Of a DNA stretch of 64,000 nucleotides, positions 44,598 through 53,591 are shown piece by piece (the stretch's first letter is position 1; every line of letters begins with the position of its first letter). Made by a program: the position numbers and the translations under genes. The stretch is from contig DAHUZJ010000021.1 of NCBI GenBank assembly GCA_027306585.1, positions 3,564-67,563 on the forward strand, given 5' to 3'. The stretch is from Acidimicrobiaceae bacterium (GTDB lineage: Bacteria > Actinomycetota > Acidimicrobiia > Acidimicrobiales > RAAP-2). The notes beneath the pieces were generated by a model that was not told where the DNA came from, ran no database searches, and saw only the letters and a program-made list of their open reading frames with translations.

Positions 44598-45607
44598 CGC
44601 CGGCCCTCCACGAACACCGAGAAGGCGGCGGCCGCGAGGGCCAGGGCGGCCACGCCGGCCGCCTTCCACATGCGCCCCAGGTCGCGGGTCGGGACCACCG
44701 GGTCGGGGGGCAACCCGTAGACCTCGGGCTCGTCCAGGAGGAGGAAGAAGGCACCGCACCCCCCGACGCCGTCATCGGGGTCGTCGCCGTACAGGCGGGC
44801 TTCGGTGGCGCCGAGCGCGTGGAGCTGCGCCACCCGTCCCCGGGCCCGGTCGCGCAGCTCGTCGAGCGTGCCGAACTGGATGGAGTCGGTCGGGCACGCC
44901 TTTGCGCACGCCGGTTCGAGCCCGTCGCGCAGGCGGTCGTAGCAGAGCGTGCACTTGTGGGCCTGGCCGTCCGTCGGCCGACGGTCGATCACGCCGAAGG
45001 GGCAGCCCGACACGCAGTACCCGCAACCGTTGCAGATATCGTCCTGGACGACCACGGTGCCGAACTCGGTGCGGAAGAGGGCGCCGGTCGGGCAGACGTC
45101 GAGACAGCCGGCGTGGGTGCAGTGCTTGCAGACGTCGGACAGCATGAGCCAGCGGAAGTCCATCCGGTCGGCGCCGCCGGGCGGTGGCGGGCCGCCCCCG
45201 GGGACGCCGGGGTCGAGCGGGGCCGTGCCGAGCTCGCCCCCGCCCCGCTCGGCCTGTCGCAGGCGCCCGGCCACCACCCCGGCGGCGTAGCTCGTCGAGG
45301 ACGGGCCCACGGGCAGACCGGCCACGCCGCCATCCTGGCGGCCGAGCCGCCGGGGCTGCTCGACGAAGGCGACGTGCCGCCACGAGTCGGCGCCGAGCAT
45401 GCCGGTGTTGTCGAGCGACATGCCGAGGAGGTTGAACCCGTCCTCCGGCACCGCGTTCCACTCCTTGCAGGCCACCTCGCACGCTTTGCAGCCGATGCAG
45501 ACGGACGTGTCCGTGAAGAACCCGACCCGAGGGGGATGGCCGACGTGGCCCGCCTGGGTGGCCACGTCGTCGACCGGTCCGTACAGGGGATGCGTCCCGA
45601 GGGTCAT
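44594..45607 (-). CDS. fdhB: formate dehydrogenase iron-sulfur (beta) subunit with a C-terminal TM anchor
   Basis: Four Cys clusters: CIGCKACEVAC, CKHCTHAGCLDVC, CNGCGYCVSGC and CTLC..EPACAKAC. Tail helix AAGVAALALAAAAFSVFV. ATG 45607 has a GGAGGA RBS and overlaps the fdhA stop. Confidence 0.9.
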   Translation of the reverse strand: MTLGTHPLYGPVDDVATQAGHVGHPPRVGFFTDTSVCIGCKACEVACKEWNAVPEDGFNLLGMSLDNTGMLGADSWRHVAFVEQPRRLGRQDGGVAGLPVGPSSTSYAAGVVAGRLRQAERGGGELGTAPLDPGVPGGGPPPPGGADRMDFRWLMLSDVCKHCTHAGCLDVCPTGALFRTEFGTVVVQDDICNGCGYCVSGCPFGVIDRRPTDGQAHKCTLCYDRLRDGLEPACAKACPTDSIQFGTLDELRDRARGRVAQLHALGATEARLYGDDPDDGVGGCGAFFLLLDEPEVYGLPPDPVVPTRDLGRMWKAAGVAALALAAAAFSVFVEGRR

Positions 45608-48600
45608 GCGTCCTCCGTTCGAGGTCGGGTGGGGGTCGGTGGCGCCACCTCCGCCGCGCCGAGCCGACGGCGCACCTCCTCGGCCACCGGTCCCGGGCGG
45701 GGGGCCGAGTGTGCGGGCGCTGTGGGATGGGCGGTGTCGATGCGGGTCCCGGTGGCGACCGTGACCCCGGCTCGCCGCCGGTAGTCCTCCAGGTAGCGCA
45801 CCAGGTCCGGGCCCCGCGGCCGACGGCCGGCGCGGACGTCGCACGTCGCCACCTTCGACTCCTGGATCAGCACGTTGGGGTCGAGCGAGATGCCGAAGAG
45901 GTCGTTCACCACGTCCCCCGTGACGAGCCCGGCCGGTCCCCAGTGGTACGGCATCCAGATCTGGTGGACCACCCGTTGCTGGACCCGCAGGGGCTTCATG
46001 CGGTCGGTGACGAGGACGCGGGCGTCGACGGCGGCGCGGCTCGTGACGACGTGGGCCCAGCCGAGGTGCTCGAGGCCGCGCTCCCGCGCCAGCTCGGGCG
46101 AGACCTCGACGGTGAGCGCCGGCTGGAGCTCGGCGAGGTAGGGGAGGTTCCGGCTCATGCCCCCCGCCGTGTGGTGCTCGGTGAGGCGGGCCGTCGTGAG
46201 CACGTAGGGGAACACGTCGGTGTGCGCTTCGGGTGGGGACGGGTTCGAGGGATTGTCCGGACGGCCGTAGACCATCCTGGTCGGGTTGCCCTGCTGGGCG
46301 TAGAAGGGGTTGGCGAACGGCGACTCGTGGGGTTCGTAGTGGGTGGGCAGGGGGCCGTCGTGCAGGCCCGCCGGGGCGAACAGCCATCCCTTGCCGTCCG
46401 CCTGCATGACGAACGGGTCGTCGCCGTGCAGCGCCGCCACCCCCACCGCCCCGTCGGGCGGGACGTAGTCCGGCTTCTTGGCCCGCTCGAAGTCGGGAAC
46501 GTCGTGACCGGTCCACTCTCCCTTGGCGGCGTCCCACCACACGCAGGCCTTGGCGTCGCTCCAGGGCCGCCCGCCGGGGTCGGCGGAGGCCCGGTTGTAG
46601 AGGATGCGCCGGTTGTACGGCCACGCCCAGGCCCACTCGAGCGAGAAGTCGCCGGGACGTGTGGTCCGGGGGCTGCGGCGGGCTGCCTGGTTGACCCCCC
46701 CGGCGAAGACCCCGCTGTAGATCCAGCAGCCGCACGAGGTGGTGCCGTCGGCTGCGAGGTCCAGGTAGCCGTCGACGAGCTCCCCCGTGGTGAGGTCGTG
46801 GCCGTTGATGCGGCGGAGCACGTCGGCGGCGTCCGGCTCGTCGCCCTGCACGGCGTAGTCCCACGCCAGGTCCTGGACGGGCCGGTCCCTGGGATCGGTG
46901 GAGCTCGCGAGCAGTTGCTGCACCCGCCGCCCCAAGTGGTAGAGGAACCACAGCTCGGAACGCTGGTCGCCGGACGGGTCGACCGCCTTCTCCCGCCACT
47001 GGAGCAGGCGCTGGGTGTTGGTGAAGGACCCGTCCTTCTCGGTGTGGGCGGCGGCGGGGAAGAAGAACACCTCGGTCCGGCACTCCTCGGGGACGATCTC
47101 CCCGGTGGCGATCTCGGGTGCGTTCTTCCAGAAGGTCGCGCTCTCGGTCATGGCCAGGTCTCGCACCACCAGCCAGTCGAGGTTGGCCAGTCCGAGCCGC
47201 TGGAGGCGGCCGTTGGCGGACCCGACCGCAGGGTTCTGGCCCAAGAGGAAGAAGCCGAAGACGCGGCCGTCGATCATGTCCATGGCCGAGCGGTACGTCC
47301 CGTGGTCGCCGTTGATCCGCGGCAGGTAGTCGAAGCAGTAGTCGTTCTCGCCCGTCGCGTGCTCGCCCCAGTACTCCTTGAGCAACGAGACCGTGTACGC
47401 ATCGGCGTTGCGCCAGAAGCCCTTCTGGTTGTGGGCGGCGATGGAGCCCAGGTAGGTGGCGAGGTCCTTCCCGCTCTCGGTGGACGGCATCGGGAGGTAG
47501 CCCGGGAGCAGGTTGAACAGCGTGGGGATGTCCGTCGACCCCTGGATGCTGGCGTGGCCGCGCATGGCCATGATCCCGCCGCCGGGCCGGCCGATGTTGC
47601 CCAGCAGGAGCTGGACGATCGTTGCCGTCCGGATGAACTGGGCACCGACGGTGTGCTGGGTCCAGCCCAGCGCGTAGACGACCGCCGAGGTCCTCTCGCG
47701 GCCCGACGCCTCGGTCCACCAGTCGCACAGCTGGAGGAATTGGTCCCTGGGCGTGCCGCACGTCTGCTCCACCATCTCGGGCGTGTAGCGGGCGTAGTGG
47801 CGCTTGAGGAGCTGGTAGACACAGCGCGGGTGCTGGAGGGTCGCATCGCGGGCGATGGTGCTGGTTGTCTCGACGGCGGGCCCCCCCGAGCCGTACTGGT
47901 GCCCCGACGCGTGCTCCTTGTGCGCCCGGTGATCGCCCCCGGGCCCCCCCCGTTCGTACTGCCACGAGGTGGTGTCGTAGGTGGCGGAGCTCGGGTCGTA
48001 GCCGCTGAACAGCCCGTCGAGGTCCTCGGTGTCGGCGAACCGCTCGTCGACGAGGAACGACGCGTTCGTGTAGGCGACGACGTAGTCGCGGAAGATCTTG
48101 TCGTTGGCGAGGATGTAGTTGACGACACCGCCGAGGAAGGCGATGTCGCTCCCCGCCCGGAGCGGGACGTGCATGTCGGCGAGGGCGCTGGTGCGGGTGA
48201 AGCGGGGGTCGACGTGGACCACCTTGGCGCCCCGGGCCTTCGCTTCGACCACCCACTGGAAGCCCACCGGGTGCGCCTCGGCCATGTTCGACCCCATGAT
48301 GACGATGCACTGGGCGTTCGCCAGGTCCTGCTGGAAGTTGGTTGCGCCCCCCCGGCCGAACGACGCCCCCAGACCGGGGACGGTGGCCGAGTGTCATATG
48401 CGGGCCTGGTTCTCGATCTGGATGGCACCGAGCGCGGTGAACAGCTTCTTGATCAGGTAGTTCTCCTCGTTGTCGAGGGTGGCCCCGCCCAGGCTGGCGA
48501 AGCCCATGGTGCGGCGGAGGGTGTTGCCCTGCTCGTCGACGTCCTGCCAGCCCCGGTCGCGGGCGTCGAGCACCCGCTCCGCCACCAGGTCCATGGCCTG

Positions 48601-48957
48601 CTCGAGGTCGAGCTCCCGCCACTCGGTGGCATAGGGGGCCCGGTAGAGCACCCGTTGCTCGCGCTGAGGTCCGGTGACCAGCTGCTTGCTGGCTGAGCCC
48701 TTGGGGCACAGCCGCCCGCGAGAGATCGGACTGTCCGGGTCGCCCTCGATCTGGATGACGTTCCCGTCCTTCACGTACACGAGCTGGCCGCAGCCCACCG
48801 CGCAGTAGGGGCAGACCGACCGGGCGACGCGATCGGCCGAGCGCGTGCGGGGCGCCAGCTCGACGCTCTGGCGGGACGCCACGGCGGCGCCCCGTCCCCA
48901 GGGGTCGCCGCCCATGAGCTGCCGGACCACCGGCCACGACTGGATCAGGCGTCGCAT
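45604..48957 (-). CDS. fdhA: formate dehydrogenase catalytic (alpha) subunit, selenocysteine-containing (in-frame TGA at 48394-48396)
   Basis: Track ORFs 48394..49086 and 45604..48297 are in the same frame. Together they read ...CPYCAVGCG...IENQARI-U-HSATVPGLGASFGRGGATN...IMGSNMAEAHPVGF, colinear with FdnG/FdhF around the Sec residue. A GGAGGAG RBS precedes GTG 48960 / ATG 48957. Confidence 0.85.
48352..48393 (-). promoter_or_regulatory. candidate bacterial SECIS element immediately 3' of the UGA
   Basis: The mRNA reads UGA CAC UCG GCC ACC GUC CCC GGU CUG GGG GCG UCG UUC GGC. The GUCCCC/GGGGGC stem (48381-48365) closes a GGUCU loop. The GGU CUG codons sit at the same offset from UGA as in E. 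coli fdhF, and an outer GGCC/GGCC pairing is possible. Confidence 0.6.
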
Positions 48958-49092
48958 CACTCGGCTCCTCCGTCCGCGTGTGCCCACCGCGTCGTGCGGC
49001 GGGCTGCTCCACTTATGCCCGCTACCGCCCGCCGCTACCGCCCGCCGCTGCCCCCCTCGCCGGGCTCGGGCCGACACGCACCCCACCGCCCC

Positions 49093-49695
49093 TCAGCTCT
49101 TTCGGCGGGGGCCCTTGCCCTTCTTGCGCCCGCTGCCCTCGCGGCCGAGTGGGGTCTCCGGCCCGCCGTGCGCCGCCCGCCCGCCCGCACCGTGCGGGAC
49201 CTCCGGGTCCGGGACCTCACCGCCAAGGGCGGTGGCGACCGCTCCCGGGCGCCCGGCGCCGGCCCCAACCGAGGCCCCGGCGCCGGCCGACAGCAGGGCC
49301 CGCACCGAACGGTGGGAGAGGAGCGAGCAGAGCGAGCCCGAGGACGCAGCCGAGAGGATCGAGACGAGCGAGCCCAGTGACCCCACCGACAAGGTCGAGC
49401 CGACCGACCCGATGGAGAGGATCGAGCCCACGGAGCCGATCGACAGGATCGAGCCCACGGAGCCGATCGACAGGATGGACCGTTCGCCGTGCCGCCAGCC
49501 TCCCCGGTGGGAGCCCGGCCCGTGGGTCTCGACGTGACGGTGGCCATGACGGTGGCCGTGCCGGGGGGCACGCCCGTGGGTCTCGACGTGCCGGTGGCCG
49601 TGCGGGTTGTGCCCCGGCGCGGGGACCTGCCGGCGCCCGGAGCTCCCACCATGCCGGGGGGCAGTTCGATGCCCGTGGACCCGGTGCTGTCGCAT
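49093..49695 (-). CDS. His-rich / nonapeptide-repeat protein of unknown function
   Basis: 200 aa. The N-terminus is rich in His and Arg with two HGHRHVETHG copies. It is followed by SILSIGSVG x3 and degenerate copies (STLSVGSLG, SLVSILSAA, SSGSLCSLL), an Ala/Gly region and the basic tail GRKKGKGPRRKS. Repeat copies differ only at synonymous sites in this frame. Confidence 0.55.
   Translation of the reverse strand: MRQHRVHGHRTAPRHGGSSGRRQVPAPGHNPHGHRHVETHGRAPRHGHRHGHRHVETHGPGSHRGGWRHGERSILSIGSVGSILSIGSVGSILSIGSVGSTLSVGSLGSLVSILSAASSGSLCSLLSHRSVRALLSAGAGASVGAGAGRPGAVATALGGEVPDPEVPHGAGGRAAHGGPETPLGREGSGRKKGKGPRRKS
49315..49479 (-). repeat. 27-bp in-frame tandem repeat array (about 6 units, 3 encoding identical SILSIGSVG)
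   Basis: Perfect 27-mers lie at 49418-49444 and 49445-49471, with flanking diverged units. A separate 28-bp direct repeat (49518-49545 and 49572-49599, one mismatch) encodes the HGHRHVETHG copies. Confidence 0.85.
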
Positions 49696-49773: not shown

Positions 49774-49801
49774 TTGACATCCAGGGGGAACGGCGCATAC
49801 T
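49774..49801 (+). promoter_or_regulatory. candidate sigma-70/SigA-type promoter of coxM
   Basis: Perfect -35 TTGACA (49774-49779), a 16-nt spacer and -10 CATACT (49796-49801). An RBS-like GAAGGGGG precedes ATG 49835. Confidence 0.4.
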
Positions 49802-49834
49802 GGCAAACGATTGCGTCGCCCGAAGGGGGCTCCC

Positions 49835-50715: not shown

Positions 50716-51201
50716 ATGCACGTGTCGATGACGGTCAATGGCGAGCCGGTCGCCCGCGAGATAGAGGACCGGCTCCTGCTGGTGCACTTCCTGCGCGATC
50801 ACCTCGGGCTCACCGGGACGCACTGGGGTTGCGACACCTCCAACTGCGGGACCTGCGTGGTGTGGCTCGACGGGGAGCCGGTCAAGTCCTGTACGGTGCT
50901 GGCGGCGATGGCCGACGGCCACGAGGTGCGCACCGTCGAGGGCCTCGAGCGCGACGGGGAGCTCGATCCCGTGCAGCAGGGCTTCATGCAGTGCCACGGG
51001 CTCCAGTGCGGGTTCTGCACCCCCGGCATGATGATGACGGCCCGGGCGCTGCTCGACCGGAACCCGGCCCCTTCGGAGGAGGAGATCCGCGAGGCGATCT
51101 CCGGACAGATCTGCCGCTGCACTGGCTATGCCACCATCGTGCGGTCCGTGCAGTGGGCCGCCGCCTACGAGGCGAGCCAGGCCGTGGGGAGCTCCGCATG
51201 A
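50716..51201 (+). CDS. coxS: CO dehydrogenase small (2x[2Fe-2S]) subunit
   Basis: CDTSNCGTCVV, CHGLQCGFCTPG and CRCTGY. 161 aa. Confidence 0.95.
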   Translation: MHVSMTVNGEPVAREIEDRLLLVHFLRDHLGLTGTHWGCDTSNCGTCVVWLDGEPVKSCTVLAAMADGHEVRTVEGLERDGELDPVQQGFMQCHGLQCGFCTPGMMMTARALLDRNPAPSEEEIREAISGQICRCTGYATIVRSVQWAAAYEASQAVGSSA

Positions 51202-53591
51202 CGACGCTCGGAACCCGCCCGCTCGACAGCTTCGTCGACAACGACCAGAAGCCGGTCGGCTACGGCCGGATGCTGCGCAAGGAGGACCCGCGGTTCGTCC
51301 GCGGCCTCGGGCACTACTGCGACGACATCCAGCTGCCGGGGATGCTGCACATGGCGATCCTGCGTTCGCCGTACGCCCATGCCCGGATCGTCTCGATCGA
51401 CGCCAGCGCCGCTCTCGCCCACCCCAAGGTCAAGGCCGTGGTGACCGGCGCCGACCTGGCGGAGAAGGGCCTGGCGTGGATGCCGACCCTGTCCAACGAC
51501 GTCCAAGCCGTGCTCGCCACCGACAAGGTGCGCTTCCAGGGCCAGGAGGTCGCCATCGCCGTGGCCGAGGACCGCTACGCGGCCCGTGACGCCCTTGACC
51601 TGATCGACGTCGAGTACGAGCCGCTCGACCCGGTGGTCGACGCCCGCCGGGCCCTCGAGCCCGGCGCTCCGGTGATCCGTGACGATCTGGAAGGCAAGGC
51701 CGACAACCACTGCTTCGACTGGGAGACCGGCGACGAGGCGGCGACCCAGGCGGTCTTCGATGCCGCCGAGGTCGTGGTCAGCCAGGACATCGTCTACCCG
51801 CGGGTCCACCCGGCCCCGATGGAGACCTGCGGCTGCGTCGCCGACTACGAGCGGGTCAGCGGGAAGCTGACGTTGTGGACGACGTCCCAGGCGCCGCATG
51901 CCCACCGGACGCTGTATGCGCTCGTGGCGGGGTTGCCCGAGCACAAGATCCGGGTCGTCTCTCCGGACATCGGCGGCGGGTTCGGCAACAAGGTCCCGAT
52001 CTACCCCGGGTACGTCTGCGCCATCGTGGCGTCGCTCGTCCTCAACAAGCCCGTCAAGTGGATGGAGGACCGGTCGGAGAACCTCATCTCCACCGGCTTC
52101 GCCCGGGACTACCTCATGCGCGGGGAGATCGCCGCCACGCGTGACGGCAAGATCCTGGCCGTCCGCACCCACGTGCTGGCCGACCACGGTGCCTTCAACG
52201 GCACCGCGGCGCCCGTGAAGTACCCGGCGGGCTTCTTCGGCGTGTTCACCGGGAGCTACGACCTCGAGGCGGCGTACTGCAAGATGACGGCCGTCTACAC
52301 CAACAAGGCGCCGGGTGGCGTCGCCTACGCCTGCTCCTTCCGGATCACCGAAGCGGTGTACCTCGTGGAGCGCATCGTCGACTGCCTGGCCGACGAGCTC
52401 GGCATGGACCCCGCGGAGCTGCGGCTGCGCAACCTGATCCGGCCCGATCAGTTCCCCTACACCACCAAGACGGGGTGGGTCTACGACTCGGGCGAGTACG
52501 AGCGGGCACTTCGGCTCGCCATGGACATGGTGGGCTACGACGAGTTGCGCAAGGAGCAGGCGGAGCGGCGTGCCCGGGGCGAGATGATGGGCATCGGGAT
52601 CTCGTTCTTCACCGAGGCGGTGGGTGCCGGTCCGCGCAAGGACATGGACATCCTCGGCCTGGGCATGGCCGACGGCTGCGAGCTGACGGTGCACCCGACC
52701 GGCAAGGCCGTGGTGCGGCTCTCGGTCCAGACCCAGGGGCAGGGCCACGAGACGACGTTCGCCCAGATCGTGGCGGAGGAGCTCGGCATCCCGCCGGGCG
52801 ACATCGAGGTGGTCCACGGGGACACGGACCAGACCCCCTTCGGCCTCGGCACGTACGGGAGCCGGTCGACGCCCGTGTCGGGGGCCGCCGCCGCCATGGT
52901 CGCCCGCAAGGTGCGGGACAAGGCGCGGATCATCGCCTCGGGGATGCTCGAGGTGTCCGTGGCCGACCTCGAGTGGGAGAAGGGCGCGTTCGGGGTGAAG
53001 GGCGACCCGGGGAAGTCGGTGACGATCCAGGACATCGCCCTCCGCTCCTACGGCGCCGGGGACCTCCCCGAGGGGCTGGAGGGCGGCCTGCAGGCCGAGG
53101 TGTGCTACAACCCCGAGAACCTCACGTACCCGTTCGGGGCCTACGTCTGCGTGGTCGACGTCGACCGGGGGACGGGGCAGGTGAAGGTGCGGCGGTTCGT
53201 GGCGGTCGACGACTGCGGCACCCGGATCAACGAGATGATCATCGAGGGCCAGGTGCACGGCGGGCTCACCGACGGCGTGGGCATGGCGCTCATGGAGATG
53301 ATCGCCTTCGACGAGGAAGGCAACTGCCTCAGCGCCTCGCTCATGGACTACCTGATCCCGACGGCGCTGGAGGTACCGGACTGGCAGACCGGCCACACGG
53401 TCACGCCCTCGCCGCACCACCCGATCGGCGCCAAGGGCATCGGCGAGTCGGCGACGGTCGGGTCGCCGCCGGCGATCGTGAACGCCGTGGTCGATGCCCT
53501 GTCGCCGATGGGCGTGCGGCACGCCGACATGCCCCTGACGCCGGCACGGGTGTGGGACGCGATGCAGGGACATCCGACCCCGCCGGTGTGA
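51198..53591 (+). CDS. coxL: form I CO dehydrogenase large (Mo-Cu) subunit
   Basis: 797 aa. GGVAYACSFRITE matches the form I active-site signature AYxCSFR, and the M-S-L gene order is typical of form I. It overlaps coxS by ATGA. Confidence 0.85.
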   Translation: MTTLGTRPLDSFVDNDQKPVGYGRMLRKEDPRFVRGLGHYCDDIQLPGMLHMAILRSPYAHARIVSIDASAALAHPKVKAVVTGADLAEKGLAWMPTLSNDVQAVLATDKVRFQGQEVAIAVAEDRYAARDALDLIDVEYEPLDPVVDARRALEPGAPVIRDDLEGKADNHCFDWETGDEAATQAVFDAAEVVVSQDIVYPRVHPAPMETCGCVADYERVSGKLTLWTTSQAPHAHRTLYALVAGLPEHKIRVVSPDIGGGFGNKVPIYPGYVCAIVASLVLNKPVKWMEDRSENLISTGFARDYLMRGEIAATRDGKILAVRTHVLADHGAFNGTAAPVKYPAGFFGVFTGSYDLEAAYCKMTAVYTNKAPGGVAYACSFRITEAVYLVERIVDCLADELGMDPAELRLRNLIRPDQFPYTTKTGWVYDSGEYERALRLAMDMVGYDELRKEQAERRARGEMMGIGISFFTEAVGAGPRKDMDILGLGMADGCELTVHPTGKAVVRLSVQTQGQGHETTFAQIVAEELGIPPGDIEVVHGDTDQTPFGLGTYGSRSTPVSGAAAAMVARKVRDKARIIASGMLEVSVADLEWEKGAFGVKGDPGKSVTIQDIALRSYGAGDLPEGLEGGLQAEVCYNPENLTYPFGAYVCVVDVDRGTGQVKVRRFVAVDDCGTRINEMIIEGQVHGGLTDGVGMALMEMIAFDEEGNCLSASLMDYLIPTALEVPDWQTGHTVTPSPHHPIGAKGIGESATVGSPPAIVNAVVDALSPMGVRHADMPLTPARVWDAMQGHPTPPV

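What the first reader, a model, noticed from the sequence alone, without database searches (positions are those of the whole stretch)
49093..49695. His-rich protein with SILSIGSVG nonapeptide repeats kept by purely synonymous variation, between the FDH and CODH clusters
**Composition of the minus-strand ORF (200 aa).**
- It has a His/Arg/Gly-rich N-terminus with two HGHRHVETHG copies, encoded by a 28-bp direct repeat.
- It has about six 9-residue units: SILSIGSVG x3, then STLSVGSLG, SLVSILSAA and SSGSLCSLL.
- An Ala/Gly stretch and a Lys/Arg tail follow.

**Which strand codes.**
- The third SILSIGSVG unit (49399-49425) differs from the second (49426-49452) at five nucleotides.
- All five are synonymous in this frame.
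- The same changes alter the antisense reading (PTEPIDRIE versus PTDPMERIE).
- This argues that the minus frame is coding and under purifying selection.

**Function.** I cannot place it in a family. The His-rich head suggests metal binding, and it sits between two Mo-enzyme clusters, one of which needs Cu. The Ser/Gly/aliphatic nonapeptides could form a glycine-zipper membrane segment or a beta-solenoid or amyloid-like array.
Basis: seen in the sequence. Interest (0 to 1): 0.65.

Follow-up and report, generated by a model that had tools for sequence, protein, structure and literature searches.

The report
Unnamed Ser-X-X triplet-repeat small protein
The ORF is a real gene from a large, unnamed family of small bacterial proteins that have a serine at every third residue for about 70 residues; the family's function is unknown, and the gene's position between the two molybdenum-enzyme clusters looks incidental.

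Summary
**Observation:** confirmed. The minus-strand ORF 49093-49695 (200 aa) has three parts:
- a His/Arg/Gly head, residues 1-72
- a run of 24 Ser-x-x triplets, residues 73-144, starting with three SILSIGSVG units that differ only at synonymous third positions
- a basic Ala/Gly/Pro tail

**Is it a gene?** Yes.
- A profile of the repeat array finds 1359 cluster representatives (E<=1e-3) in Actinomycetota, Chloroflexota and Cyanobacteria.
- The same peptide is written with TCN serine codons in actinobacteria and AGY codons in the other phyla.
- dN/dS on the array is 0.01-0.23 in 13 orthologue pairs.
- Sister strains carry 2, 3 or 4 units, always in frame.

**What is it?** Pfam, NCBIfam, PADLOC, PHROGs, PDB, Rfam and the literature do not describe the family.

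**Context.** No neighbouring gene is conserved across 80 loci. The His-rich head has no homologue outside this lineage. A role in FDH or CODH metal handling is therefore unsupported.

**Mechanism (inferred, about 40%).** A Ser/Gly-rich hydrophobic segment sits in or on the membrane and self-associates, and both basic ends stay in the cytoplasm.
- For: 38 alignment columns with no charged residue, Arg/Trp flanks, a positive C-flank, borderline hydropathy, and an AlphaFold helix over the degenerate half of the array.
- Against: the uncharged stretch varies widely in length, and the perfect repeats could not be modelled.

The parts
49093..49695 (-). Whole ORF: 200 codons plus the TGA stop. The ATG at 49693-49695 is the only in-frame ATG, GTG or TTG upstream of codon 80.
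49480..49695 (-). His/Arg/Gly-rich head, residues 1-72 (17 His, 14 Arg, 14 Gly; net charge +11). It is specific to this lineage. It ends in GGWRHGER, which resembles the family's Arg/Trp N-flank.
49573..49602 (-). First HGHRHVETHG copy (residues 32-41)
49519..49548 (-). Second HGHRHVETHG copy (residues 50-59). It differs from the first only at synonymous positions.
49264..49479 (-). Ser-x-x triplet array, residues 73-144. This is the family-defining domain.
49399..49479 (-). Three 27-nt units, each encoding SILSIGSVG. Sister strains carry 2 or 4 units.
49312..49479 (-). Stretch of 56 residues with no charged residue (73-128). Proposed to be embedded in or associated with the membrane.
49282..49377 (-). 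Residues 107-138, the only helix in the AlphaFold2 model (block-mean pLDDT 53-66). It covers the degenerate half of the array and the C-flank.
49288..49317 (-). SHRSVRALLS, a degenerate version of the family's C-flank motif S-R-W-S-[LV]-L-S-W-R
49096..49263 (-). Ala/Gly/Pro-rich basic tail, residues 145-200, ending GRKKGKGPRRKS. It is lineage-specific and tolerates a 9-nt in-frame insertion and 3 of the 4 amino-acid changes seen between strains.

Best explanation
**Shown.** 49093-49695 (minus strand) is a real protein-coding gene. It belongs to a large, unannotated family of small proteins (mostly 84-200 aa) found in Actinomycetota, Chloroflexota and Cyanobacteria. The family domain has these features:
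- About 22-24 Ser-x-x triplets: position 1 is Ser in 97%, position 2 is Ile/Val/Ala, position 3 is Gly/Leu.
- The domain opens with near-invariant S-[IV]-L-S-I-G-S-x-G nonapeptides.
- It often closes with S-R-W-S-x-L-S-W-R followed by basic residues.

**Inferred (about 40%).**
- The uncharged Ser/Gly/aliphatic array inserts into, or lies on, the cytoplasmic membrane. The degenerate C-terminal half forms a helix, and the array as a whole is probably a hairpin.
- Small Ser/Gly residues recurring every three to four positions let the helices pack tightly and self-associate.
- The basic N- and C-terminal extensions stay in the cytoplasm. In this organism they are a His/Arg head and a Lys/Arg tail.
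- The gene stands alone. Its place between the FDH and CODH clusters is a matter of position, not function.
For: **Gene and family (shown).**
- 423 word-indexed hits.
- The profile finds 1359 representatives at E<=1e-3 and 746 at E<=1e-10.
- Among 80 confirmed genome loci, 53 are Actinomycetota, 14 Chloroflexota, 12 Cyanobacteria and 1 a deltaproteobacterial MAG.
- Ser codons are 91% TCN in the 52 TCN-type loci, 51 of them actinobacterial (1156 of 1272). They are 91% AGY in the 28 AGY-type loci (545 of 602), including loci with 68-72% G+C.
- Array dN/dS is 0.01-0.23 in 13 orthologue pairs.
- Adjacent near-identical units differ at codon positions 1/2/3 by 292/149/815.
- Strain variants carry 2, 3 or 4 units plus a 9-nt insertion, all in frame.
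- A conserved extended -10 box (TGCGAGAAT) lies 6-7 nt before the ATG in one actinobacterial subfamily. This points to leaderless, independently transcribed genes.

**Membrane reading (inferred).**
- 38 consecutive alignment columns carry no charged residue in 61 diverse sequences.
- Position 1 accepts only Ser, with rare Ala or Cys, and never Thr.
- The C-flank has mean net charge +2.3 and is positive in 88% of proteins. The N-flank has mean +0.9.
- Arg/Trp motifs occur at one or both ends.
- The 19-residue Kyte-Doolittle maximum is 1.5-2.0, and the Wimley-White octanol sum is at or below zero.
- AlphaFold2 places one long helix on the degenerate half plus the RW motif: window residues 107-138, and P0092 residues 41-96 at pLDDT about 65-77.
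Against: - The summed Hessa scale is +0.4 to +4 kcal/mol per 19 residues, which is marginal for autonomous insertion.
- The uncharged stretch varies widely (median 50, interquartile range 47-64, range 24-82). A fixed two-helix hairpin does not predict this.
- 20% of N-flanks are net negative.
- 17% of members carry an additional, conventional C-terminal hydrophobic helix. This could mean the array itself is not the anchor.
- AlphaFold2 gives pLDDT 42-47 for the perfect repeats.
- Near-absolute conservation of Ser suggests a specific chemical role for the hydroxyl group that simple packing does not require.
- There is no expression, localisation or phenotype evidence.
- Translation of the head rests only on two points: there is no other in-frame start, and it has a family-like WR..ER flank.
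Confidence: 0.42

Rival explanations
1. The array is a soluble or cytoplasmic self-assembling beta-rich element. It could be a two-nonapeptide (18-residue) beta-roll or solenoid, an intertwined trimeric fibre, or a cross-beta serine-ladder amyloid. The basic ends would act as solubilising or binding tails.
For: - Ser, Gly, Ile and Val are residues that favour beta-strand or polyproline-II conformations.
- The strict 3- and 9-residue periodicity is conserved across phyla.
- Array length varies from 13 to 32 triplets, and copy number differs between strains, as in fibrous repeat proteins.
- Ser is replaced only by small residues, as in steric zippers.
- Monomer AlphaFold2 fails on the perfect repeats. 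This is typical of obligate oligomers.
- 17% of members have a separate conventional hydrophobic helix after the array.
Against: - AlphaFold2 usually models beta-solenoids readily, but here it gives coil or helix.
- Pfam Hexapep, RTX and other repeat models give no hit at E<=10.
- A surface-exposed solenoid would be expected to tolerate charges, yet 38 columns have none.
- A period of 3 does not give the in/out alternation of a beta-strand.
Confidence: 0.22
2. The protein is a substrate whose serines are modified after translation: glycosylated, phosphorylated, dehydrated or cross-linked. This would be analogous to the His-Xaa-Ser (HxsA) triplet-repeat precursor peptides.
For: - Ser is 95-100% conserved at every third position, more strictly than any hydrophobic position.
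- Eight family members give weak, sub-threshold hits to NCBIfam NF038313, His-Xaa-Ser repeat protein HxsA4 (16-26 bits, E 1e-5 to 1e-2).
Against: - Scores are far below the 55-bit cut-off, and the window protein gives no hit at all.
- There is no His-x-Ser pattern.
- No maturase or any other conserved neighbour lies within +/-3 kb in 80 loci or +/-6 kb in 4 loci.
- The window neighbours are FDH and CODH genes.
Confidence: 0.07
3. One reading: the His-rich head binds Ni, Cu, Zn or Mo-related metals, and the protein serves the adjacent FDH or form-I CODH, for example in Cu delivery.
For: - 17 His in 72 residues, with HGH, HRH and HGHRHGHRH motifs. Stretches of this type bind divalent metals in HypB, UreE, CooJ and Hpn (established knowledge).
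- The gene is on the same strand as, and upstream of, the FDH alpha gene, with no terminator-like site between them.
- Synteny with the CODH genes is kept in two sister strains.
Against: - The synteny is seen only in genomes about 98% identical.
- No other family member in the 84 loci examined shares this context.
- The head has no detectable homologue.
- His-rich heads are rare in the family.
- In a 73% G+C genome, His/Arg/Gly-rich low-complexity sequence arises easily.
- The conserved part of the protein is the array, not the head.
Confidence: 0.08
4. This is not a gene. It is a non-coding DNA tandem repeat, or a minus-frame ORF produced by chance in G+C-rich DNA, or the plus strand is the coding strand.
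For: - Long spurious ORFs are common at 73% G+C.
- The head and tail have atypical codon-position G+C.
- Gene callers disagree on the start.
- No promoter-like or terminator-like site was found for the minus strand.
Against: - The peptide is conserved while the DNA is not: serine uses TCN or AGY codons depending on phylum.
- dN/dS is 0.01-0.23.
- Indels keep the reading frame.
- Array third-position G+C is 0.94.
- The antisense peptide changes both between units and between codon families.
Confidence: 0.03

Closest known systems
Transmembrane glycine-zipper or small-xxx-small (GAS) helix-packing motifs in small oligomeric membrane proteins
   Same: Small residues (Ser, Gly) recur every 3-4 positions among Ile, Val and Leu. 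There is a long uncharged stretch with Arg/Trp interfacial flanks and a basic C-flank, and the proteins are small.
   Different: Here the repeat is strictly 3-periodic with Ser, runs for 50-70 residues rather than about 20, is only marginally hydrophobic, and is built from tandem nonapeptides. No sequence family relationship was found.
His-Xaa-Ser repeat proteins (HxsA; NCBIfam NF038313, HxsA4)
   Same: Short proteins with a triplet repeat carrying Ser at every third residue. This is the only library model that gives any signal with family members.
   Different: Scores are 16-26 bits against a 55-bit cut-off. There is no His in the repeat and no associated radical-SAM maturase genes. The window protein itself gives no hit.
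Collagen-like (Gly-X-Y)n bacterial proteins
   Same: Strict triplet periodicity with a small residue at position 1. Copy number is variable.
   Different: Ser replaces Gly, which a collagen triple helix does not tolerate. Positions 2 and 3 are aliphatic or Gly rather than Pro or polar. There is no Pfam Collagen hit for the window protein, and only a 16-bit hit for one relative.
RTX nonapeptide beta-roll repeats (GGxGxDxUx)
   Same: Tandem Gly-rich nonapeptides. Two units of 18 residues could form one turn.
   Different: There is no Asp and so no Ca2+ ligand. There is no Pfam hit and no secretion signal, and AlphaFold2 does not build a roll.
His-rich metal-binding tails (HypB, UreE, CooJ, Hpn)
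   Same: The head has 24% His with HxH motifs.
   Different: This is only a compositional resemblance. There is no homology, and the head is attached to an unrelated conserved domain.

Membership tests
Unnamed (Ser-x-x)n family defined here | At least 13 consecutive triplets with Ser at position 1 | tested here: met
   The window protein has 24 triplets, 22 of them Ser. The family median is 24 and the range 13-32.
Unnamed (Ser-x-x)n family defined here | Near-invariant S-[IV]-L-S-I-G-S-x-G nonapeptides in the first half of the array | tested here: met
   SILSIGSVG x3. Alignment columns 82-108 are 87-100% conserved.
Unnamed (Ser-x-x)n family defined here | C-flank S-R-W-S-[LV]-L-S-W-R followed by basic residues | tested here: inconclusive
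   The window has SHRSVRALLS in the same columns. Arg is kept and both Trp are lost. The motif is present in about half of 234 members.
Unnamed (Ser-x-x)n family defined here | Significant sequence similarity to other members | tested here: met
   E-values of 1e-13 to 1e-7 to 119 proteins outside its own 90% cluster.
HxsA His-Xaa-Ser repeat protein (NF038313) | Score at or above the curated cut-off of 55 bits | tested here: not met
   No hit for the window protein. Relatives score 16-26 bits.
HxsA His-Xaa-Ser repeat protein (NF038313) | Adjacent HxsB/HxsC radical-SAM maturases | tested here: not met
   The neighbours are FDH and CODH genes. No conserved neighbour was found in 80 loci.
Collagen-like triple helix | Gly at every third residue; Pfam PF01391 hit | tested here: not met
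   Position 1 is Ser in 97%. No Pfam hit.
RTX beta-roll or hexapeptide left-handed beta-helix repeats | GGxGxDxUx or [LIV]-G-x-x-[STAV]-x consensus; Pfam model hit | tested here: not met
   No Pfam family at E<=10. There is no Asp in the repeat.
Glycine-zipper or small-xxx-small transmembrane segment | Repeated small-xxx-small spacing within a hydrophobic stretch | tested here: met
   By inspection, G78-S82, G81-S85, G87-S91 and so on. There are 56 uncharged residues.
Glycine-zipper or small-xxx-small transmembrane segment | Actual membrane insertion and oligomerisation | not testable with these tools
   Hydropathy is borderline: Kyte-Doolittle 1.69, Hessa +3.3 kcal/mol. No topology predictor or experiment was available.
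Holins (class II) | Small protein with two transmembrane segments and a basic C-terminus, encoded next to an endolysin or in a prophage | tested here: not met
   No PHROGs hit for the window protein at E<=1. There is no phage context or conserved neighbour.
His-rich metallochaperone tails | Homology to a known chaperone, or demonstrated metal binding | tested here: not met
   The head has no homologue. Metal binding was not testable.

The most novel reading that the evidence does not exclude
The (Ser-x-x)n array is a previously unrecognised structural element: a serine-ladder repeat that forms its own kind of oligomeric membrane or fibrous assembly. It would define a new, ancient family of small proteins shared by Actinomycetota, Chloroflexota and Cyanobacteria, with a cellular role not yet described.
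Probability: 0.3. Interest if true: 0.75.

Novelty: new variant of a known kind. Interest (0 to 1): 0.55.

Why it matters
**A missing family.** This small-protein family is conserved in three bacterial phyla and under strong purifying selection (1359 representatives at 50% identity). It is absent from Pfam, NCBIfam, the PDB and the searched literature.

**Annotation problems.** Gene callers mis-start it. In L001 and L088 they begin at an internal GTG inside the repeat.

**Structural interest.** Strict Ser-x-x periodicity over about 70 residues has no characterised structural precedent, so solving one member could reveal a new repeat architecture.

**Practical use.**
- The family deserves a family model.
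- The strain-level 27-nt copy-number variation is a ready marker.
- The result warns against reading function from the FDH/CODH neighbourhood.

Tried and rejected
**Library searches**
- Pfam, NCBIfam, PADLOC and PHROGs on the window protein gave nothing.
- Eight relatives gave only sub-threshold hits to HxsA4, collagen and similar models.
- A PDB profile search found only artificial (GST)n linkers.
- Rfam on the window and on 40 related loci found no riboswitch or other RNA family.
- Literature searches for the motif and for Ser-X-X repeats found nothing relevant.

**Structure**
- Two AlphaFold2 runs gave low confidence (mean pLDDT 51 and 59). I did not run a fold search because the matches would be meaningless.

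**Context**
- I clustered all open frames (stop to stop) of at least 80 aa from 84 loci plus the window region. Apart from the repeat itself read in other frames, no cluster spans more than 8 loci.
- Apparent domain fusions (P0005, P0059, P0021) look like upstream read-through in G+C-rich DNA. I did not use them as evidence.

**Other**
- The first genome scan, with the 61-sequence alignment, failed because no stretch was conserved enough. It worked with 9 sequences.
- A search with the head alone found no homologue.
- P0238 could not be located on a contig.
- The organism was not identified.

Full report
**1. What is in the sequence**

The window is 73% G+C. On the minus strand, 49093-49695 is an ATG-initiated ORF of 200 codons. 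It has three parts:
- **Head, residues 1-72:** 17 His, 14 Arg, 14 Gly, net charge +11.
- **Array, residues 73-144:** Ser at every third residue.
- **Tail, residues 145-200:** Ala/Gly/Pro-rich, ending GRKKGKGPRRKS.

- Two HGHRHVETHG copies are encoded by an in-frame direct repeat, 45 nt at 82% identity and spaced 54 nt. The differences inside the decapeptide are synonymous.
- Three 27-nt units encode SILSIGSVG at 49399-49479.
- Units 2 and 3 differ at five third positions, all synonymous.

The repeat is best described as 24 Ser-x-x triplets. The longest comparable run elsewhere in any frame of the window is 11 triplets. Third-position G+C of the array is 0.94, as in the neighbouring enzyme genes (0.91-0.96). 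The head and tail are less diagnostic.

**2. It is a gene**

*Homologues.*
- The word-indexed search found 423 proteins at E<=1e-3. All are small and all are called "hypothetical".
- A profile of 61 members, run against 1.84 billion cluster representatives, found 1359 at E<=1e-3, 746 at E<=1e-10 and 41 at E<=1e-30.
- A scan of one genome per species confirmed 160 loci. I examined the best 80: 53 Actinomycetota, 14 Chloroflexota, 12 Cyanobacteria and one deltaproteobacterial MAG.

*The peptide is conserved and the DNA is not.*
- In the 52 loci where TCN codons dominate, 51 of them actinobacterial, array serines are TCG, TCC, TCA or TCT in 1156 of 1272 cases.
- In the 28 AGY-type loci they are AGC or AGT in 545 of 602 cases. 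These are the Chloroflexota, the Cyanobacteria, the deltaproteobacterial MAG and one Actinomycetota MAG.
- This holds even at 68-72% G+C (L066, L073).
- This rules out a DNA-level repeat element and the antisense frames.

*Selection.*
- Nei-Gojobori dN/dS on the array is 0.01-0.23 in the 13 orthologue pairs where dS was not saturated.
- Adjacent units that are at least 7/9 identical differ by 705 synonymous and 245 non-synonymous codons. The differences fall at codon positions 1/2/3 as 292/149/815.

*Sister strains (about 98% identical).*
- L088 has 2 SILSIGSVG units, the window and P0239 have 3, and L001 has 4.
- A further 9-nt insertion lies in the tail. All length changes keep the frame.
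- The seven substitutions between the window and L001 (3 synonymous, 4 non-synonymous) all lie outside the array.

**3. Where translation starts**

There is no in-frame ATG, GTG or TTG between codon 1 and codon 80. The residues just before the array (GGWRHGER) match the family's N-flank columns, which are rich in Trp, Arg and Glu. The His-rich head is therefore most likely translated.

The public gene calls in L001 and L088 start at the GTG inside the first unit, and so are probably truncated.

In one actinobacterial subfamily a conserved TGCGAGAAT lies 6-7 nt before the ATG. This looks like an extended -10 box and implies leaderless mRNAs. In the window the equivalent TAGACA is a weak match. 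I did not establish the promoter.

**4. Family anatomy**

Among 121 proteins the array has a median of 24 triplets (range 13-32):
- position 1 is Ser in 97%
- position 2 is Ile 30%, Val 22%, Ala 15%
- position 3 is Gly 43%, Leu 26%

Column statistics on 61 diverse members show:
- Three near-invariant S-[IV]-L-S-I-G-S-x-G units, with invariant L84, L93 and G99.
- A degenerate half that follows them.
- The closing motif S-R-W-S-[LV]-L-S-W-R-S-x-R.
- Thirty-eight consecutive columns (reference residues 91-128) with no charged residue at all.
- Position 1 accepts only Ser, with rare Ala or Cys, and never Thr.

Heads and tails are not conserved between subfamilies.
- Minimal members are 84-96 aa.
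- 40 of 234 proteins (17%) have an extra conventional hydrophobic helix at the C-terminus.
- The Rhodococcus/Nocardia proteins end in ...PDEPDL...HCQT.

**5. Context**

In the window the gene lies between the start of the FDH alpha gene (same strand, downstream) and the divergently transcribed coxM-like gene. This arrangement is kept in the near-identical strains.

Elsewhere the neighbours are unrelated. Clustering of all flanking ORFs from 84 loci plus the window region found no neighbour family shared by more than 8 loci, apart from the repeat itself read in other frames. No Rfam family lies in the window or in 40 related loci.

The head has no homologue in the 5.8-billion-cluster database. 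His-rich heads are unusual in the family: the median His fraction is 2.6%. The proposed link to Mo- or Cu-enzyme maturation therefore rests only on position and composition.

**6. Mechanism**

*Library and structure results.*
- Nothing in Pfam, NCBIfam, PADLOC, PHROGs or the PDB matches the window protein.
- Relatives give only sub-threshold hits (16-26 bits against a cut-off of 55) to the His-Xaa-Ser repeat protein HxsA4. This reflects the shared triplet periodicity.
- AlphaFold2 is not confident: mean pLDDT is 51 for the window protein and 59 for P0092.
- Both models nonetheless place a single long helix on the degenerate half of the array plus the RW motif. This is residues 107-138 in the window protein and 41-96 in P0092, the latter at pLDDT about 65-77.
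- Both models leave the perfect nonapeptides unmodelled.

*Hydropathy and charge.*
- Hydropathy is borderline. The 19-residue Kyte-Doolittle maximum is 1.5-2.0. The Wimley-White octanol sum is at or below zero. The Hessa sum is +0.4 to +4 kcal/mol. The Cyanobacteria and Chloroflexota members score as the most hydrophobic.
- The C-flank is positive in 88% of proteins (mean +2.3). The N-flank is weakly positive (mean +0.9).

*My reading (inference, about 40%).* The array is a membrane-embedded or membrane-associated Ser/Gly-zipper segment, probably a hairpin, with both basic ends in the cytoplasm. It self-associates through its small-residue faces.

*Weak points.*
- The uncharged stretch varies widely (interquartile range 47-64 residues).
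- Insertion energy is marginal.
- Some members have a separate anchor helix.
- The invariance of Ser remains unexplained.

*Rivals.*
- A beta-rich self-assembling repeat, about 22%.
- A serine-modified substrate, about 7%.
- A metal-handling accessory protein, about 8%.
- A non-gene, about 3%.

**7. Comparison and novelty**

The closest functional analogy is the transmembrane glycine-zipper or small-xxx-small motif. The closest formal analogies are the triplet repeats of HxsA and collagen. Membership of each of these was tested and not met; see the membership table.

The protein is a member of an unnamed, undescribed family. I rate it a new variant of a known kind (tandem-repeat small hydrophobic proteins) rather than categorically new, because neither the fold nor the function has been established.

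**8. Verdict**
- The coding-strand inference is confirmed and greatly strengthened.
- The metal and Mo-enzyme interpretation is not supported.
- The structural class is unresolved, with a lean towards the membrane model.
- Interest is 0.55.

Noticed in passing
window 48394-48396 (minus strand), inside the FDH alpha gene (about 45604-48960): There is an in-frame TGA within the conserved active-site context ...IENQARI-TGA-HSATVPGLG. ORFs 48394-49086 and 45604-48297 are in the same frame. This looks like a selenocysteine codon in a formate dehydrogenase of a high-G+C actinobacterium. Rfam reported no family in the window at gathering threshold, and I did not fold the downstream RNA to look for a SECIS hairpin.
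   Followed up: partly
window 49019-49049: A 13-nt tandem repeat (CCGCTACCGCCCG, 2.4 copies) lies between the stop of this gene and the FDH alpha start. Sister strains carry more copies, and both of their contigs (L001, L088) end inside it, so it appears to break assemblies.
   Followed up: partly
window 49774-49801 (+): A strong sigma-70-like promoter match (TTGACA, 16-nt spacer, CATACT; 10 of 12) ends 10 nt before the TTG start of the coxM-like gene at 49811. This suggests a leaderless or very short-leader cox operon. Shuffled sequence gave 0 such matches.
   Followed up: no
window ORF 50829-53591 (+): The CoxL-like large subunit contains ...GGVAYACSFR.... This fits the form-I Mo-Cu CO dehydrogenase signature AYXCSFR, which I recalled from the literature and did not test here.
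   Followed up: no
L011, L069, L029, L024, L039 and others, just upstream of the family gene's ATG: A conserved TGCGAGAAT (variants GACAAT, CAGAAT, CACAAT) lies 6-7 nt before the ATG. When the upstream frame is read through it appears as a conserved 'CEN..M' peptide in database proteins. It is most simply an extended -10 box of a leaderless transcript.
   Followed up: partly
L001 3219-3620 and L088 4001-4348 (public gene calls): In both sister strains the gene caller started this gene at the GTG inside the first SILSIGSVG unit. The His-rich head and part of the array were dropped. The cluster members of 115-133 aa are truncated versions of proteins of about 190-212 aa.
   Followed up: yes
P0017, P0047, P0093, P0107, P0221 and others (Rhodococcus/Nocardia subfamily): These proteins share a conserved C-terminal tail, ...RP.L.VVPDEPDL....HCQT or HSQT, after the array. 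An Rce1-like CAAX protease gene lies about 3 kb away in R. triatomae (L002/L003). This may be coincidence.
   Followed up: no
P0013, P0023, P0025, P0090, P0096, P0099, P0102, P0118: This subfamily has a conserved N-terminal domain (MSERINVHVPILSVNSRSVIGNASQDHRRVTSQRTGHGGHIH...), a more Gly-rich array (GSxGS units), and a conventional C-terminal hydrophobic helix ending in RR. It is the only other group with a moderately His-rich head.
   Followed up: no
L086 (Actinomycetota MAG54, G+C 0.60): This is the only locus labelled as actinobacterial that uses AGY serine codons in the array (17 of 21). The cause could be mis-binning, horizontal transfer or a deep branch.
   Followed up: no
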